Under the pieces are notes generated by a model, which saw only the letters and a program-made list of their open reading frames with translations, did not search any database and was not told where the DNA came from. The position numbers were made by a program, and so were the translations under genes. Shown here piece by piece: positions 2,988 to 9,015 of a DNA stretch of 64,000 nucleotides. Source of the stretch: an uncultured Candidatus Saccharibacteria bacterium (GTDB taxonomy: Bacteria; Patescibacteriota; 4484-211; JAGQKX01); NCBI GenBank assembly GCA_964392315.1, contig CAYMOT010000001.1, forward strand, positions 9,042 through 73,041, written 5' to 3'. Position 1 is the first letter of the stretch. The number at the start of each line of letters is the position of its first letter.

Positions 2988-3740
2988 ATGAAACTTAAAC
3001 TCCTCTTCGCATTAGTACTTTTTTGTATCTTAACCCCTTCAATAAAGGCGCAGGAATATACGACTGCTGGCGCAATCGCCATTTCCACCACTGAAGAAGC
3101 TATCCCGGTGGGTTCTATTATAAGTAGTAGCAGAGGTTCATACGTAACCTCAACCACTGCCTATGACCCCCAGATGTTTGCGGTTACAACCGATGCGCCA
3201 AGCACTTATATTGACGACCATGCGATTGAAAATAAGCATCTCGTAGTTACCAGCGGTGAAACGAGGCTTCGAGTTTCTACCCAAAACGGCACAATACAAG
3301 AAGGAGACTTCCTTACCTCTTCGCAAATTCCCGGCGTCGCTCAGCGAGCAACACAAACAGGGACAATCGTTGGAATTGCATTAGAAAATTACGATGGATC
3401 TGAGGAAGGGTATGTCATGGCATTTGTAGATATAGGTACACAGTATATTAGTACTGATCTGCAAACCACCTTATTAAACAGTCTGCGGAATGCATTCCAA
3501 GCGCCTTTCCTCACACCCGTTCTTTCGCTTCGGTACCTGGTCGCTGCAGCACTCCTCACCACTGCGTTTATCATTGGATTTCTCAACTTTAGGAGAATCT
3601 CAGGCAGCAGCATTGAAGCACTTGGCAGAAATCCTCTTGCCCAAAAGGCAATCCGCACAACAGTAGTCTTAAATTTCGCTATCACGTTTTCGATTATGTT
3701 AGGCGGTGTAGTCCTGGCCATAGGAATTCTGATATTATAA
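2988..3740 (+). CDS. atypical ATP synthase Fo subunit c-like protein: signal peptide, ~150-aa N-terminal extracytoplasmic domain, C-terminal c-like helical hairpin
   Basis: It sits in the atpE position directly upstream of atpF. The N-terminus MKLKLLFALVLFCILTPSIKAQE looks like a cleavable signal peptide. The C-terminus ...SSIEALGRNPLAQKAIRTTVVLNFAITFSIMLGGVVLAIGILIL aligns to the c-subunit loop and helix 2 (..ARQPEA...I.T.VL..A..S......V.A..L.). Phe occupies the position of the ion-binding Glu/Asp, and helix 1 lacks the GxGxGxG motif. Confidence 0.5.
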   Translation: MKLKLLFALVLFCILTPSIKAQEYTTAGAIAISTTEEAIPVGSIISSSRGSYVTSTTAYDPQMFAVTTDAPSTYIDDHAIENKHLVVTSGETRLRVSTQNGTIQEGDFLTSSQIPGVAQRATQTGTIVGIALENYDGSEEGYVMAFVDIGTQYISTDLQTTLLNSLRNAFQAPFLTPVLSLRYLVAAALLTTAFIIGFLNFRRISGSSIEALGRNPLAQKAIRTTVVLNFAITFSIMLGGVVLAIGILIL

Positions 3741-3759
3741 GAGTTATTAAGAGACCACT

Positions 3760-4518
3760 ATGCTTAACCATCCACTTGTTTCATTAGCATTCTATTCATT
3801 ACTCGCACTCATCATATTGCTTATCCTTTTAATAGCGATTTTGATCTTTAAGATATTGGTAGAAATATTTGAACTTGCCCAACAACGTGCTGATCAAACG
3901 AGAGTAACGCTTTTAAAAAATGCTCAAAAAAGAGCAGCGCAAATTTTGGATGAGGCACACAAAACTGCTCATGATACATTGGCCGAATCTTCTACAAAGG
4001 CAAAAGAATATCTCACAGAAACGATATTTACTGCGGACACACTCAGGGGAACTCAAGTCCATATGCTTGAGGATTATGCAAAAAAACAAGAAGAGCAGCT
4101 TGCGCGACACACAGAAGAACTCAAAGTCCAATACGCATCAACCGTAACTACCTTAACAACGACATTAACTCAAAACATCCAGCAACTCGATCAAGCAGCT
4201 AGATCACAAATGCAAACTGCCCTTAGTACCCTTAACACACAAATCGCCGATGAGATCGATTTTATGCATGACGAAATTACCAAGCGAGTCGAAGAATCTC
4301 ATACTGCATTTGAAGAAAAGTCATCAAGCGCATACCAAGAATTATTAACTCAATTAAACGATTATAAAAAACAAAAGACTGAACAAATTGATAAGTCGGT
4401 TAATCGCGTGCTTGTCGATATATCGAAACGTGTTTTTGGCAGAACGTTAACCTTAGAGGAGCATCAAGACTATATACTCAAAACGCTTGAGGATGCGAAA
4501 CAGCTACTCAATGAATAG
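3760..4518 (+). CDS. atpF: F0F1 ATP synthase subunit b
   Basis: One N-terminal TM helix (LVSLAFYSLLALIILLILLIAILIF) followed by a long charged coiled-coil. Position between the c-like gene and delta. Confidence 0.7.
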   Translation: MLNHPLVSLAFYSLLALIILLILLIAILIFKILVEIFELAQQRADQTRVTLLKNAQKRAAQILDEAHKTAHDTLAESSTKAKEYLTETIFTADTLRGTQVHMLEDYAKKQEEQLARHTEELKVQYASTVTTLTTTLTQNIQQLDQAARSQMQTALSTLNTQIADEIDFMHDEITKRVEESHTAFEEKSSSAYQELLTQLNDYKKQKTEQIDKSVNRVLVDISKRVFGRTLTLEEHQDYILKTLEDAKQLLNE

Positions 4519-4563
4519 CAACAACGCGAAAACATCTCTCGTTGCTACACAGCATCACCAACT

Positions 4564-5049
4564 ATGGAAAGCCTTTCGCAATACATACGAACAACTGATG
4601 AACGGGACTTAATCATTACTGAACTCCACCAGCTTTTTGATTCCTTACACAAGGTAGATAAGAGTCAATTCTCCGCCATTCTAAATAAAGAGGTCAGCGT
4701 TAGAACTGCTGAGGTCGTACACACCGCAATTGCCGAGGCCAATGTCCCAAATGAAGATTTTTCTGCTCTAGAAAACTGTTTACAAACATTAAAGCAAGAG
4801 CTGATGCTCCTCACAACCGTTGAAATTACCCTTGCTATTAAACCGCAGCATGAATTTCTCACCCAACTGTATCGTTGGGTTCAAGAACATGTCGGCAAGC
4901 AGACAATTATCCAGCTTGCTATAAACCCTGAGATAGTTGGAGGGATAATCCTGGTATACCAAGGAAAGTATATAAATCTTTCTCTGAGCAAGAGAATAGA
5001 TGATGTGTTTACTCAGCACTCGCATGAAATACTCTCATTATTATCATAA
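4564..5049 (+). CDS. atpH: F0F1 ATP synthase subunit delta (OSCP)
   Basis: 161 aa, OSCP-like, immediately upstream of alpha. The C-terminal region ...GGIILVYQGKYINLSLSKRIDDV is typical of delta. Confidence 0.65.
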   Translation: MESLSQYIRTTDERDLIITELHQLFDSLHKVDKSQFSAILNKEVSVRTAEVVHTAIAEANVPNEDFSALENCLQTLKQELMLLTTVEITLAIKPQHEFLTQLYRWVQEHVGKQTIIQLAINPEIVGGIILVYQGKYINLSLSKRIDDVFTQHSHEILSLLS

Positions 5050-6511: not shown

Positions 6512-6512
6512 T

Positions 6513-7364
6513 ATGAACGGAACCATCCACCTCCAAGAAGAAATTGCATACTTACATAACTTCCAGCAAATTGTTCAGACCTATCAAGAGATAGCTGCCT
6601 CTCGCATGCAACGTGTTAAGGATTCTGTTTTACACAACAGAGAATATCTTGAAGAAATTCGCGATGTGTATAAAGAGATCATCAACTCATATGAAAAAAA
6701 TATCCAAACGTTACAGAAGAAAGTTGAAGCATCTGCTCATAAGAAAAATGCGACAGTCAGTATCTTTTTATCAGCAAATACCAAACTCTATGGTTCAATT
6801 ATTAAAGAGACGTTTGAGGTATTCAACAAGTATATACAAGAAAACACCACCGACATTGTTATCGCAGGCCGCACTGGAATTCAGCTTTACAAAGCCTATG
6901 GAGACGGAAGAGAGTACACCTATTATGATCTGCCCGACGATACAATTACTCCAGAGTCTCTCAGTGAGATAACAACGCATATTTTGGCATATAAGGAAAT
7001 ACTCGTATTCCATGGAGAATTTGAAGACATCCTCGTCCAACAACCCAAAAAGACTGTTATATCCTCAATACCACAAAGAGAATCAACCAACACGAATCAC
7101 GTTCATGTATCATATATTTTTGAACCAACACTTGAAGATGTTCTACTGTTTTTTGAGAAAGAGATACTCGCATCTATTTTTGCACAGACAGTCAACGAAT
7201 CTAATTTGAGCAAGTTCACTTCTCGAATGGTCAGTTTAAATAAAACAAATGACAACGTGCGTCGGCAATTAAAAACCATTGAAAACACGATTCAATTGGT
7301 ACATCATCGAATTCTTGATAAAAAACAACAGGAACAGCTTGCCAGCATAAGCCTATGGACATGA
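6513..7364 (+). CDS. atpG: F0F1 ATP synthase subunit gamma
   Basis: The N-terminus ...[25 protein letters not shown] matches the gamma N-terminal helix. The C-terminal helix is ...[19 protein letters not shown]. Position between alpha and beta. Confidence 0.85.
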
Positions 7365-8758
7365 CAAACAGCCAACCAAATCAAGAACGCAGAGGAACGA
7401 TCATCTCAATCCATGGACAAATCGTAGAAGTTGAATTTATTGGCCGTGACCAACCACATATATTCTCACTGCTCGCGCTCGAGTCCGATATGGCAACCCA
7501 GTTACAGATATTTAAATCCTCCGGTAACGCGCGATATTTTTGCATCAGCTTGAGCTCAACTCACTTATTAACCAGAGGTGCTACAGTCGTAGACCTTAAT
7601 AAATTCTTAGAGGTACCCGTTGGATCGGCAATACTTGGGCGGGTTATCGACATGTTTGGACAAGCAGTAGATAACATGGAACCTATTAACTCAACCGAAT
7701 ACCGCGCGGTCAGACAGGAAGCACCTGCTGTTGAAAACGTTAAGCAATTTAACCAGCAACTAGAAACTGGTATAAAAGTCATCGACCTTTTTGCACCACT
7801 CACTCTTGGCGGAAAGGTAGGCTTTCTGGGCGGTTCTGGCGTAGGAAAGACTATGCTGCTAACCGAGGTTTTGCATAATATTATCAATTTGGATAAGGAG
7901 AAAAACGTGTCTGTCTTCGCCGGAGTTGGTGAACGAACGCGTGAAGGACAAGAACTATTTGAAGAACTGCGCGGAACAGGTATCCTACCGTGGGTTTCTT
8001 TAGTATTTGGCGCTATGGGTGAATCTCCTTCTTACCGTTATTTGACAGGATTGTCTGCCACCACTGTCGCAGAACATTTCCGAGATACATACAAAAAGAA
8101 TGTCTTATTCTTTATCGACAATATGTTCCGGTTTGCACAAGCTGGCAACGAACTCGCTATGCTCATGCGTGAACTTCCCTCAGAGGACGCATACCAACCA
8201 ACGCTGGTGTCTGAAATTGCACACATACACGAGCGTCTTTCTTCAAACGAAAACGGTGCCATCACCACAGCCGAGGCAATATATATCCCGGCAGATGATC
8301 TCTTTGACCAAGCGGTACAGACAATCTTTGATTATCTCGACTCCGCGATTGTGCTCTCACGAGACATTTATAGCGAAGGTCGTTTGCCAGCAGTCGATAT
8401 ACTTGCATCTGACTCATCAGCGCTTAACTTACGCACGGTATCTGCCGAACATTATTATACGGTGCTTGACTCAAAGAAACTGCTCTCAGACGCAAAAGAA
8501 CTCGATCGTATTGTTTCTTTGGTGGGAGAAAGCGAACTATCGGAAGAAGATCAAGTGTTATACCAGCGAGGCAAGAAGATTCGTAATTTTATGACGCAAA
8601 ATTTCCATGTTGCCGCAAACCAAACCGGAAGACCTGGTGTATATGTGCCACTGCAAGAAACAATCAAGGTGACACGTGGAATCATTAGCGGACAATATGA
8701 CCAAATTACCGACGATAAGTTTATGTTTATTGGAGGTTCAAAAGATCTACCTGCATAA
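7355..8758 (+). CDS. atpD: F0F1 ATP synthase subunit beta
   Basis: Walker [11 protein letters not shown]; GERTREG; [10 protein letters not shown]; overlaps the atpG stop by 10 nt. Confidence 0.9.
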
Positions 8759-8760
8759 AT

Positions 8761-9015
8761 ATGTCCAACCTGCCGACAATTCAAACTACCATTCGCACTC
8801 GTGAAGGCACTACATTCGACGAACCGGTTCTTGCACTCACAGCAACGAATGATACGGGGATGTTTGATATCCTGCCGCAACACGCTAACTTCATCACACT
8901 CGTGTTTGGAGATGTAAAAATCTTACTACAGAACGGAACCTACAAGGATTTCACCCTCACCAAAGGCCTCATCCGTGTTAAAAACAACAGAGTAACACTC
9001 TTCATGGAGGCTTAG
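8761..9015 (+). CDS. atpC: F0F1 ATP synthase subunit epsilon, short form with only the N-terminal beta-sandwich domain
   Basis: 84 aa directly after atpD. Beta-rich sequence with no C-terminal helical hairpin. Confidence 0.6.
   Translation: MSNLPTIQTTIRTREGTTFDEPVLALTATNDTGMFDILPQHANFITLVFGDVKILLQNGTYKDFTLTKGLIRVKNNRVTLFMEA

What the first reader, a model, noticed from the sequence alone, without database searches (positions are those of the whole stretch)
2988..9015. F-type ATPase operon with a non-canonical Fo: no subunit a, and a signal-peptide-bearing c-like protein lacking the ion-binding carboxylate
The operon reads c-like, b, delta, alpha, gamma, beta, epsilon. The 480-bp region upstream (2508-2987) has no ORF, so atpB (subunit a, which carries the essential Arg and the half-channels) is absent from the operon. 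The atpE slot holds a 250-aa protein instead of the usual ~70-90 aa. It has a cleavable-looking signal peptide and a ~150-aa extracytoplasmic domain. Its C-terminal hairpin aligns residue-by-residue with the subunit-c loop and helix 2 (EALGRNPLAQKAIRTTVVLNFAITFSIMLGG versus [30 protein letters not shown]). Phe replaces the conserved Glu/Asp, and helix 1 lacks the GxGxGxG packing motif. Epsilon is only the 84-aa beta-sandwich without the regulatory C-terminal helices. F1, the peripheral stalk (b, delta) and a c-like ring element are all present. Either atpB and a canonical atpE lie elsewhere in the genome, or this is an F1 tethered to a non-translocating, remodelled membrane sector.
Basis: partly seen in the sequence, partly recalled or inferred. 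Interest (0 to 1): 0.7.

Follow-up and report, generated by a model that had tools for sequence, protein, structure and literature searches.

The report
F-type ATPase without an ion path
This operon encodes a normal-looking ATP-burning F1 motor and stator, but its membrane rotor has lost the proton/sodium site and gained an outward-facing domain; the design is conserved across a large group of ultra-small bacteria and usually sits beside a giant surface-fibre gene, so it probably does mechanical work rather than making ATP.

Summary
Window 2988-9015 encodes c-like, b, delta, alpha, gamma, beta and a short epsilon, with no subunit a in the operon or elsewhere in the 64 kb.

The 250-aa first protein has a signal peptide, a beta domain of about 125 aa, and a C-terminal hairpin that matches F-type c subunits by profile and by predicted fold. 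No carboxylate occupies the ion site in 79 genomic homologues or 143 further cluster representatives.

This is not a one-off. About 250 loci in species-representative genomes (WWE3, Levy-, Woese-, Ames-, Shapiro- and Gottesmanbacteria) carry the same gene, with the same operon in the 80 examined.

In 59 of 74 informative loci, and in this window (1-2507, minus strand), a giant protein is encoded divergently next door. It has a MerR-type HTH, one TM helix and a tail-fibre-like ectodomain.

F1 catalytic motifs are intact. The most likely reading is an ATP-hydrolysing rotary or torsional machine with no ion translocation, working with the surface fibre. The closest analogues are the Mycoplasma F1-like X0 ATPases.

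Kantor et al. 2013 noted the oddity in one WWE3 genome and left it unexplained. Genome-wide absence of atpB and atpE could not be tested here.

The parts
1..2507 (-). N-terminal 835 aa of a giant surface protein, cut off by the window edge. It has a cytoplasmic MerR-type HTH, one TM helix, then a fibre-like ectodomain. It is transcribed divergently from the ATPase operon.
   Evidence: Translation. PF00376 MerR E 1.5e-10, residues 25-61. The same HTH-TM N-terminus lies divergently upstream of the c-like gene in 59 of 74 informative loci. Two of three complete homologues tested (L028, L082) carry a Peptidase_S74 tail-fibre chaperone domain (E 3e-16 and 1e-8); the third, L001, does not.
2508..2987 (.). 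480-bp divergent intergenic region. It contains no atpB, has promoter-like sites on both strands, and holds a 16-nt near-palindrome at 2547-2562.
   Evidence: No operator conserved across relatives was found.
2988..3740 (+). c-like ring subunit. It has a signal peptide (1-21), an extracytoplasmic beta domain (about 28-152), a linker, and a c-subunit-type hairpin (177-249). The hairpin has the invariant loop EALGRNP, Phe234 at the carboxylate position, and conserved Asn229, Thr233 and Gly240.
3760..4518 (+). Subunit b homologue (peripheral stalk). It has one N-terminal TM helix and a long helix, and is about 85 aa longer than canonical b.
   Evidence: The profile of alignment A3 hits PDB ATP synthase b subunits at E 4.1e-7 and 8.2e-7. 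Present in 79 of 86 loci.
4564..5049 (+). Subunit delta (OSCP).
   Evidence: PF00213, E 3.4e-7, above the gathering score.
5000..6511 (+). F1 alpha subunit, with P-loop GDRKTGKS and the Arg-finger motif GRRPAV.
6513..7364 (+). F1 gamma subunit.
   Evidence: PF00231, E 1.1e-24.
7355..8758 (+). F1 beta subunit, with P-loop GGSGVGKT, catalytic GVGERTREG, and ESELSEED (the DELSEED equivalent).
   Evidence: atpD scores 453.1 bits against a cut-off of 462.85.
8761..9015 (+). Epsilon subunit. Only the N-terminal beta-sandwich is present (84 aa); the C-terminal inhibitory helices are absent.
   Evidence: PF02823 covers residues 8-82. The family median length is 88 aa.

Best explanation
This is a lineage-wide derivative of the bacterial F-type ATPase, found in WWE3 and Microgenomates-type Patescibacteria.

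**What is kept.** The F1 motor (alpha3beta3-gamma-epsilon) and the peripheral stalk (b, delta) are retained and catalytically intact.

**What is changed.** The ion-translocating part of Fo is gone. There is no subunit a. Subunit c is replaced by a homologue with no ion-binding carboxylate, whose N-terminus carries a secreted beta domain.

**Inferred mechanism.**
- The hairpins still form a ring. Its invariant cytoplasmic loop (EALGRNP, equivalent to the RQP/RNP loop of c) docks gamma and epsilon.
- ATP hydrolysis in F1 therefore turns, or torsionally loads, this ring relative to the b/delta stator.
- The output is movement of an extracytoplasmic crown of N-domains, not ion pumping or ATP synthesis.

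**Partner.** The machine is functionally tied to the divergently encoded giant membrane-anchored, tail-fibre-like protein. The tie could be physical, because some of these giants contain the ring's outer domain type. It could instead be regulatory, through the giant's cytoplasmic MerR-type HTH acting on the shared intergenic region.

**Shown versus inferred.**
- Shown: subunit identities, loss of the carboxylate, absence of subunit a from the operon and its flanks, family-wide conservation, and the synteny.
- Inferred: ring formation, rotation, hydrolysis-only direction, and coupling to the fibre.
For: **F1 is under selection for catalysis.** Among full-length homologues, the beta P-loop is present in 69 of 69 and GERxREG in at least 68 of 69. 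The alpha Arg-finger motif is present in 68 of 76.

**The stator is retained.** Delta passes the Pfam cut-off. The b profile hits solved b subunits.

**The first gene is a c homologue.** Evidence comes from profile search, fold search and its position in the operon.

**The best-conserved part is the F1-facing loop.** RNP is invariant in 79 of 79, and ALG plus the following L/M-A are nearly so.

**No ion site.** R+20 is F, A, I, L, G or V in 79 of 79 homologues, which have no D or E in the core of helix 2 (R+10 to R+32). In 143 further 50%-cluster representatives it is never D or E.

**No subunit a.**
- None in the window.
- None within 10 kb in 86 loci. The only recurrent multi-TM neighbour is an HExxH M50-like protein (Pfam M50).
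- One ATP synthase operon without recognisable a/b/c is described for a complete WWE3 genome (PMC3812714).

**Epsilon lacks its C-terminal helices family-wide**. From established knowledge of bacterial epsilon, those helices inhibit hydrolysis, so their loss fits a dedicated hydrolase.

**Topology fits.** The signal peptide puts the N-domain outside, and the K/R-rich loop faces inside, as in canonical c.

**Link to the giant fibre.**
- 59 of 74 loci show divergent adjacency, while the other flanks vary.
- The ring's N-domain HMM hits inside the adjacent giants of L045 and L039 and another large protein in L079 (E 2.8e-22, 7.5e-8, 3.8e-25).
- The same domain occurs three times in tandem in other giant proteins.
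- Two of three complete giants tested carry the tail-fibre S74 chaperone.

**Precedent.** Mycoplasma F1-like X0 ATPases lack Fo homologues. They include a protein with a signal peptide, an ectodomain and two uncharged C-terminal TM helices. They are required for surface systems: MIB-MIP (PMC12994834) and gliding (PMC11864180 and PMC8406192, abstracts; PMC3369863).
Against: - There is no experimental evidence of expression, assembly, ring formation or rotation.
- Genome-wide absence of atpB and atpE was not tested directly.
- 'Missing' a and b subunits in apicomplexan and trypanosome ATP synthases later proved to be highly diverged (titles and abstracts of PMC6133553 and PMC9034290).
- Mid-membrane polar residues on helix 2 are conserved: N/H/S/Q at R+15 in 143 of 143 representatives, and T or S at R+19 in most. 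These could form a non-canonical binding site.
- Without subunit a it is unclear what anchors the b helices against torque.
- Fifteen of 74 loci lack the adjacent HTH-bearing giant.
- Some lineages lack b and delta in the operon (L076, L082), and others have c-like plus b without F1 nearby (L060, L065, L083).
- The synteny with the giant could be purely regulatory, since MerR-type regulators are typically divergent from their targets.
Confidence: 0.55

Rival explanations
1. Relocated Fo. A canonical atpB and a carboxylate-bearing atpE lie elsewhere in the genome and form the real Fo. The 250-aa c-like protein would then be an accessory or paralogous membrane protein that merely shares the operon.
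For: Only 64 kb of this genome, and 20 kb or less of each relative, could be read. Split atp operons are known in other bacteria (general knowledge).
Against: - The c-like gene occupies the atpE slot, 19 nt before b, in all loci.
- Its F1-docking loop is its most conserved element.
- About 250 loci in species-representative genomes keep it.
- For a complete 878-kb WWE3 genome the authors describe one ATP synthase operon whose membrane subunits lack homology to known ones, and mention no canonical a or c.
- These genomes are about 1 Mb or smaller, where a redundant c-like gene would be unlikely to persist.
Confidence: 0.07
2. Still a chemiosmotic enzyme. The ring would bind H+ or Na+ through a non-canonical polar site (Asn/His at R+15, Thr/Ser at R+19). 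A cryptic, unrecognisably diverged a-like partner encoded elsewhere would provide the half-channels.
For: - Polar residues at R+15 (N/H/S/Q in 143 of 143 representatives) and R+19 are conserved mid-membrane.
- A full peripheral stalk is kept.
- Cryptic Fo subunits have been found before in divergent ATP synthases.
Against: - Every characterised rotor ring uses at least one Glu or Asp per ion site (established knowledge of F, V and A rings). None is present in more than 220 sequences.
- No conserved multi-TM neighbour exists.
- R+15 sits five residues (about 140 degrees around the helix) from the canonical site, which suits helix packing better than an outward-facing site (inference).
- Epsilon has lost the domain that regulates hydrolysis.
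Confidence: 0.13
3. Assembly or anchoring device rather than a continuous motor. The membrane-tethered F1 would use ATP to fold, export, tension or release the giant trimeric fibre. The ring's outer domain would act like a tailspike auto-chaperone or cement protein, and sustained rotation would not be the output.
For: - The same domain, or an S74 chaperone, sits near the C-terminus of the giants.
- Giants of 2,000 to more than 6,000 aa must cross the membrane.
Against: - Complete rotor (gamma, epsilon, ring) and stator (b, delta) sets are retained. These are needed only if torque is generated between them.
- Fifteen of 74 loci lack the adjacent giant.
- No precedent is known for F1 as a folding chaperone.
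Confidence: 0.15
4. Decaying relic. The operon would be a non-functional remnant of an ATP synthase in bacteria that live by fermentation.
For: - Some contigs show fragmented alpha, gamma and beta ORFs (L001).
- Some lineages lost b and delta or the F1 linkage.
- Some Microgenomates have no ATP synthase at all (PMC7143001).
Against: - Intact ORFs and catalytic motifs are present in 69 of 69 beta subunits.
- There are 1,193 50%-identity clusters of the c-like protein at E <= 1e-30, with invariant motifs.
- These are strongly reduced genomes, where dead genes are lost quickly.
Confidence: 0.03

Closest known systems
Canonical bacterial F1Fo ATP synthase (atpIBEFHAGDC)
   Same: The gene order from E to C is the same. 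Alpha, beta, gamma, delta, b and the epsilon N-domain are all recognisable. The first gene is a c homologue by profile and fold, with the RNP/RQP loop.
   Different: - There is no atpB (or atpI) in the operon.
- The c homologue lacks the Glu/Asp and the GxGxGxG motif.
- It carries a signal peptide and an outer domain of about 125 aa.
- b is about 85 aa longer.
- Epsilon lacks its C-terminal helices.
- All NCBIfam equivalog cut-offs are missed.
Mycoplasma Type 3 F1-like X0 ATPase (MSC_0618-0624 / MMCAP2_0575-0581), required for the MIB-MIP antibody-cleavage system
   Same: - It is an F1-derived ATPase with no ion-translocating Fo.
- It has seven genes.
- One component has a signal peptide, an ectodomain and two uncharged C-terminal TM helices.
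- It is genetically linked to, and needed by, surface proteins.
- It is presumed to hydrolyse ATP only (PMC3369863; PMC12994834).
   Different: - The Mycoplasma clusters have no b or delta, but do have a 12-TM protein and a small cytoplasmic protein.
- Their membrane proteins show no detectable homology to Fo.
- They coexist with a genuine F1Fo.
- Here b and delta are kept, no 12-TM partner is seen, the hairpin is still recognisably c, and apparently no other ATP synthase exists.
- The NCBIfam MSC_0618 and MSC_0619 cut-offs are not reached (364.7 against 570; 264.8 against 520).
Mycoplasma mobile Type 2 F1-like ATPase (gliding motor, MMOB1660/1670) with giant surface proteins
   Same: It pairs an F1-type alpha/beta ATPase with a surface machinery. 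From my own knowledge, that machinery consists of very large surface proteins (Gli349, Gli521). ATP hydrolysis drives an extracellular mechanical function (PMC11864180 and PMC8406192, abstracts).
   Different: - The M. mobile motor forms cytoplasmic dimer chains, and beta has a long N-terminal extension.
- No c-like ring, b or delta is described.
- Scores to the glide_MMOB1660 and glide_MMOB1670 models are far below cut-off (349 against 600; 367 against 850).
- Motility in WWE3 or Microgenomates by this system is unproven.
Rotor subunits with carboxylate-less hairpins (Acetobacterium woodii c1; V-type proteolipids)
   Same: These show that a c-type hairpin can lose its ion-binding carboxylate and still pack into a rotor ring. 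The A. woodii c2 subunit (4bem_A) is the top PDB hit of the hairpin profile, and c1 (4bem_J) also appears.
   Different: In those rings other hairpins keep the carboxylate and a subunit a is present, so ion translocation persists (my own knowledge). Here no copy has a carboxylate.
N-ATPase (alternate F1Fo, atpDCQRBEFAG)
   Same: It is a second, divergent F-type operon type. Alpha and beta give sizeable scores to its models.
   Different: The N-ATPase has a and c, with the full Na+ or H+ site, plus AtpQ and AtpR (PMC2881411, abstract). Scores here are far below cut-off (398 against 752; 340 against 750).
Remark in Kantor et al. 2013 (mBio, PMC3812714) on the WWE3 RAAC2 genome
   Same: It describes the same operon family. 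L025 is that genome (CP006914.1). The authors noted a 'putative c subunit' homologous only to TM proteins in OP11 and WWE3 ATPase operons, and could not tell direction or ion.
   Different: They assumed that a, b and c were all present but unrecognisable. They gave no analysis of the lost carboxylate, the outer domain, the missing a, the family's breadth or the giant neighbour.

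Membership tests
F-type ATP synthase/ATPase (F1Fo) | Catalytic alpha3beta3 with P-loops, a catalytic Glu (GER) and an Arg finger | tested here: met
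   PF00006, E 1.6e-65 and 2e-58. Motifs are present in the window and in 69 of 69 beta subunits.
F-type ATP synthase/ATPase (F1Fo) | Central stalk: gamma and epsilon | tested here: met
   PF00231, E 1.1e-24. PF02823, E 2.4e-11. Epsilon has the N-domain only.
F-type ATP synthase/ATPase (F1Fo) | Peripheral stalk: delta (OSCP) and membrane-anchored b | tested here: met
   PF00213, E 3.4e-7, above the cut-off. The b profile hits PDB b subunits at E 4e-7.
F-type ATP synthase/ATPase (F1Fo) | c-type helical hairpin with a polar R-Q/N-P loop | tested here: met
   The top 9 PDB profile hits are c subunits, E 1.7e-4 to 0.24. Rmsd is 1.1-1.8 A. There is no Pfam PF00137 hit, and NCBIfam scores are far below cut-off.
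F-type ATP synthase/ATPase (F1Fo) | Ion-binding Glu or Asp in the middle of c helix 2 | tested here: not met
   Phe234 in the window. The position is never D or E in 79 plus 143 homologues.
F-type ATP synthase/ATPase (F1Fo) | Subunit a with the essential Arg and half-channels | tested here: not met
   Absent from the operon, from the 64-kb window and from the 10-kb flanks of 86 loci. The rest of the genome was not searchable. One complete-genome paper reports none recognisable.
F-type ATP synthase/ATPase (F1Fo) | NCBIfam equivalog cut-offs for atpA, atpD, atpG, atpC, atpH and atpE | tested here: not met
   Scores against cut-offs: atpA 359.1 / 484.45; atpD 453.1 / 462.85; gamma 69.8 / 194.45; epsilon 37.2 / 67.25; delta 18.4 / 57.5; c 14.8 / 43.95.
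Mycoplasma F1-like X0 ATPase (Types 2 and 3) | alpha-, beta-, gamma- and epsilon-like subunits without recognisable Fo a and c | tested here: inconclusive
   The F1 set is present and a is absent, but the membrane subunit here is still recognisably c-like. MSC_0618 and MSC_0619 model cut-offs are not reached.
Mycoplasma F1-like X0 ATPase (Types 2 and 3) | No b or delta peripheral stalk | tested here: not met
   b and delta are present in the window and in most loci. They are absent from the operon only in L076 and L082.
Mycoplasma F1-like X0 ATPase (Types 2 and 3) | 12-TM 'Protein 1' and small cytoplasmic 'Protein 2' | tested here: not met
   No polytopic or extra small gene is present in the operon or conserved in its flanks.
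Mycoplasma F1-like X0 ATPase (Types 2 and 3) | 'Protein 5': signal peptide, ectodomain and two uncharged C-terminal TM helices | not tested
   The architecture is the same as described in PMC3369863 and PMC12994834.
N-ATPase | atpQ and atpR, subunit a, and c with a full ion site; TIGR03305 and TIGR03324 cut-offs | tested here: not met
   397.9 against 752 and 339.8 against 750. No a, Q or R genes are present.

The most novel reading that the evidence does not exclude
WWE3 and Microgenomates bacteria have converted their only F-type ATPase into a trans-membrane torque transmitter. ATP-driven rotation of an ion-blind c-like ring would turn an extracellular crown that engages a giant, membrane-anchored, tail-fibre-like protein. 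The function could be attachment, motility, host-cell probing or fibre tensioning. This would be a new class of bacterial surface motor. It would also be the evolutionary intermediate linking canonical F1Fo to the Mycoplasma F1-like X0 machines.
Probability: 0.35. Interest if true: 0.9.

Novelty: new variant of a known kind. Interest (0 to 1): 0.75.

Why it matters
- **Bioenergetics of a large uncultured group.** Metabolic reconstructions of Patescibacteria routinely score 'F-type ATPase present' and infer ATP synthesis or proton pumping (for example). In WWE3 and Microgenomates that inference is probably wrong. These cells would have no chemiosmotic ATP synthase, and their energy budgets and membrane energisation need rethinking.
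[quoted passage not shown] This family is a second, apparently independent case. It still retains a recognisable c hairpin, b and delta, so it shows how an Fo can be dismantled step by step. Lineages without b and delta (L076, L082) may be a further step.
- **Testability.** It gives a concrete, purifiable target for asking whether a c-ring can carry torque to the outside of the cell. It also points to a candidate function for the giant surface proteins of episymbiotic ultra-small bacteria.

Tried and rejected
- **Search for atpB or atpE elsewhere in the window.** A hydropathy screen of all ORFs of 55 aa or more found none.
- **Search for a conserved a-like polytopic neighbour.** Clustering all ORFs from 86 loci found only an HExxH M50-type four-TM protein, plus the L1, L11 and NusG genes.
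- **Search for a conserved operator for the giant's MerR-type HTH.** The window has one 16-nt near-palindrome. No shared palindrome emerged across 59 related intergenic regions.
- **PHROGs scan.** The N-domain gave no hit. The giant gave only HTH and excisionase-type hits.
- **Literature.** Nine searches found no treatment of this system beyond one paragraph in Kantor 2013.
- **Source genome.** I tried to identify it in order to scan the whole chromosome. 
- **Organism labels.** The labels 'Candidatus Saccharibacteria' and 'Gammaproteobacteria' on many TPA MAGs were not trusted for taxonomy. Only author-named WWE3, Levy-, Woese-, Ames-, Shapiro- and Gottesmanbacteria records were used.
- **Rejected: chance resemblance of the hairpin to c.** All top profile and fold hits are c subunits, and the gene sits in the atpE slot.
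- **Rejected: assembly artefact.** The same operon occurs on independent contigs from several sequencing runs.

Full report
**1. What is in the sequence**

Seven co-directional ORFs occupy 2988-9015 on the + strand, with gaps or overlaps of at most 45 nt.

Pfam identifies five of them:
- delta: OSCP, E 3.4e-7
- alpha: ATP-synt_ab, E 1.6e-65
- beta: ATP-synt_ab, E 2e-58
- gamma: E 1.1e-24
- epsilon: E 2.4e-11, covering residues 8-82 of 84, so only the beta-sandwich is present

The second ORF (252 aa) has one N-terminal TM helix and a long helix, and no Pfam hit. A profile of 29 homologues hits solved ATP synthase b subunits first (E 4.1e-7 and 8.2e-7). The match covers both the TM-proximal part and the C-terminal delta-binding part. 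It is therefore a b subunit, about 85 residues longer than usual.

Upstream, 2508-2987 contains no ORF of note. The next gene is on the other strand. A hydropathy screen of every ORF of 55 aa or more found nothing resembling atpB or a small atpE anywhere in the 64 kb.

**2. The protein in the atpE slot**

The 250-aa product has three parts:
- a signal peptide ending in a conserved Ala-Gln
- a beta-rich domain (residues 28-152)
- two long C-terminal helices (177-214 and 216-249)

The AlphaFold model has mean pLDDT 86.6.

Evidence that the hairpin is c-like:
- NCBIfam gives only weak hits, all to subunit-c families, over residues 185-248 (best E 0.0018).
- A profile of 29 hairpins searched against all PDB sequences returns F-type c subunits as its nine best hits (E 1.7e-4 to 0.24).
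- Foldseek superposes the hairpin on c subunits at 1.1-1.8 A over 65-73 residues, with 20-27% identity.

The loop (V/I)EALGRNP(L/M)A corresponds to the RQP/RNP loop of c. Counting from the invariant Arg, the ion-binding carboxylate should be at R+20, and here it is Phe234. Helix 1 lacks the GxGxGxG motif.

**3. It is a family, not an accident**

- A word-indexed search found 36 relatives.
- An exhaustive HMM search found 1,193 50%-identity clusters at E <= 1e-30.
- A scan of one genome per GTDB species found about 250 loci. They include author-named WWE3, Levy-, Woese-, Ames-, Shapiro- and Gottesmanbacteria, the complete WWE3 genome CP006914.1, and a complete Gottesmanbacteria chromosome.

Conservation in 79 distinct genomic hairpins:
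- R-N-P is invariant.
- R+20 is F, A, I, L, G or V.
- No Asp or Glu occurs in the core of helix 2 (positions R+10 to R+32).
- Asn at R+15 is present in 77 of 79, Thr at R+19 in 67 of 79, and Gly at R+26 in 79 of 79.

In 143 further cluster representatives, R+20 is again never acidic. R+15 is always polar: N 122, H 14, S 6, Q 1.

**4. The operon is conserved, and subunit a is never there**

Gene contexts from metagenomes and from 80 genomes show the same order: c-like, b, delta, alpha, gamma, beta, epsilon.

Clustering all ORFs of 86 non-redundant loci recovers:

| Subunit | Loci (of 86) |
|---|---|
| b | 79 |
| alpha / beta | 78 |
| gamma | 72 |
| delta | 69 |
| epsilon | 59 |

The shortfalls are mostly due to contig ends and the 80-aa length cut-off.

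No polytopic a-like protein recurs within 10 kb. The only repeated multi-TM neighbour is a four-TM HExxH (M50-type) protein beyond the L1-L11-NusG-SecE cluster.

F1 is under catalytic constraint:
- beta P-loop in 69 of 69
- GERxREG in at least 68 of 69
- alpha Arg-finger motif in 68 of 76

The window's beta also keeps ESELSEED.

**5.

The divergent upstream gene (1-2507, minus strand, cut by the window edge) starts with a MerR-type HTH (PF00376, E 1.5e-10, above the Pfam cut-off). A single TM helix and a long repetitive ectodomain follow.

- In 59 of 74 loci with enough upstream sequence, a homologous HTH-TM protein is encoded divergently next to the c-like gene. It is usually 2,000 to more than 3,200 aa and often runs off the 10-kb flank.
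- One JGI gene call reaches 6,403 aa.
- Elsewhere the flanks differ between lineages.
- Of three complete giants scanned, two (L028, L082) carry a Peptidase_S74 'chaperone of endosialidase' domain near the C-terminus (E 3e-16 and 1e-8). This domain marks trimeric phage tail fibres. The third, L001, has no S74 hit.

The ring subunit's outer domain is related to these fibres:
- One homologue (P0025) gives weak Pfam hits to PF23982 and PF22758.
- An HMM of the domain hits inside the adjacent giants of L045 and L039 and another large protein in L079 (E 2.8e-22, 7.5e-8, 3.8e-25).
- The domain occurs three times in tandem in other giant proteins.

**6. What is already known**

Kantor et al. 2013 wrote about the complete WWE3 genome. 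[quoted passage not shown] They added that the putative c resembles only TM proteins in OP11 and WWE3 ATPase operons, and that direction and ion were unclear (PMC3812714).

In that genome (L025) the three genes before alpha are the c-like, b and delta-slot genes. No separate subunit a exists there. I found nothing later on this system.

Other Patescibacteria do have a, b and c (PMC8672522).

The nearest functional analogues are the Mycoplasma F1-like X0 ATPases:
- They are seven-gene clusters with alpha-, beta-, gamma- and epsilon-like subunits.
- They have no Fo homologues and no b or delta.
- They include a 12-TM protein.
- They include a 'Protein 5' with a signal peptide, a large ectodomain and two uncharged C-terminal TM helices (PMC3369863; PMC12994834).

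Type 3 is required for the MIB-MIP surface system. Type 2 is proposed to drive M. mobile gliding (abstracts).

The c-like protein here has the same architecture as Protein 5.

**7. Most likely mechanism**

*Shown:*
- an intact F1 and stator
- a c-homologous hairpin whose most conserved part is the F1-facing loop
- no carboxylate
- no subunit a in reach
- an epsilon without the hydrolysis-inhibiting C-terminal helices
- an outward-facing domain
- conserved synteny with a giant fibre

*Inferred:*
- The hairpins form a ring bound to gamma and epsilon.
- ATP hydrolysis turns or twists the ring against the b/delta stator.
- The work is delivered outside the membrane through the N-domain crown, in concert with the giant fibre.

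The link to the fibre may be physical, through the shared domain type. It may instead be regulatory, since a divergent MerR-type HTH is the classic regulator-target layout.

I put about 0.8 on 'non-chemiosmotic, remodelled Fo'. I put about 0.45 on 'mechanical output to the surface'. The overall figure is 0.55.

**8. Rivals and limits**

- **Relocated Fo (0.07).** It cannot be excluded without whole genomes, but it fits poorly with the conservation and with the complete-genome report.
- **Cryptic a plus a polar non-carboxylate site (0.13).** This is suggested by the conserved N/H at R+15. The history of 'missing' subunits in protist ATP synthases also supports it. No precedent exists for a ring without any carboxylate.
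- **Fibre assembly or tensioning device (0.15).** This is compatible with the fold matches.
- **Decaying relic (0.03).** The conservation contradicts it.

Unexplained:
- what anchors the b subunits without subunit a
- lineages with no b or delta in the operon (L076, L082)
- a clade with c-like plus b but no F1 nearby (L060, L065, L083)
- the 15 of 74 loci without the adjacent HTH-bearing giant

**9. Verdict**

The finding extends to a large, conserved and essentially unstudied variant of the F-type ATPase in ultra-small bacteria, with a conserved giant-fibre partner.

It is a new variant of a known kind (F-type and F1-like ATPases), not an unknown class. It was glimpsed in 2013. Interest: 0.75.

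Noticed in passing
window 1-64000: GC skew is negative in every 2-kb bin across the whole window, regardless of gene orientation. A strand-composition disparity has been reported for some Microgenomates (PMC7143001, title).
   Followed up: no
window 60350-63746 (minus strand): A 23S rRNA (60722-63746) runs about 100 nt longer than the Rfam model, and a 5S rRNA lies at 60350-60458. No 16S lies within the window. This may reflect an insertion in the 23S or an unlinked 16S.
   Followed up: no
window 2547-2562: A 16-nt near-palindrome, ATGTTAATATTTACAT, sits in the divergent intergenic region and overlaps a minus-strand promoter-like site. It is a candidate operator for the giant protein's MerR-type HTH. 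No shared palindrome was found in 59 related intergenic regions.
   Followed up: partly
L076 233-4879; L082 9935-15190 (Gottesmanbacteria chromosome OY969569.1): In these lineages the c-like gene is followed directly by alpha, gamma, beta and epsilon, with no b or delta in the operon. L082 has a GIY-YIG nuclease ORF inserted between the c-like gene and alpha, and its giant gene looks frameshifted. This may be a further step towards a stalk-less, Mycoplasma-like arrangement.
   Followed up: partly
L060 9962-11365; L065 9668-11270; L083 2933-4456: One clade keeps a c-like gene plus a short b-like gene. tRNA-like sequence and unrelated genes follow, with no F1 genes within 10 kb and no giant upstream.
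   Followed up: partly
P0137 (4272 aa) residues 2577-3986; P0186 (1543 aa) residues 482-1113: The outer domain of the c-like protein occurs three times in tandem inside other giant secreted proteins. It is therefore a module of fibre-like surface proteins, not unique to the ATPase.
   Followed up: partly
window 9043-11328 (minus strand): A 761-aa polytopic membrane protein with C-terminal TPR repeats and a Pro/Thr-rich tail lies directly downstream of epsilon. Pfam marks its homologues as weak Wzy_C (O-antigen ligase-like). It is conserved at this position only in the closest relatives, L008 and L009.
   Followed up: no
L001 12005-15705: On a 137-kb JGI contig the alpha, gamma and beta region is broken into many short ORFs, while the c-like gene, b, delta and the 2,681-aa giant are intact. 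This could be long-read frameshift errors or real decay. It was not resolved.
   Followed up: no
L067, L068, L071, L072, L084, L088 and others (for example L068 4040-4975): In Levybacteria-type loci a gene of about 315 aa sits between the giant gene and the c-like gene. It has a weak Fic-like region and a C-terminal DeoR-type HTH.
   Followed up: partly
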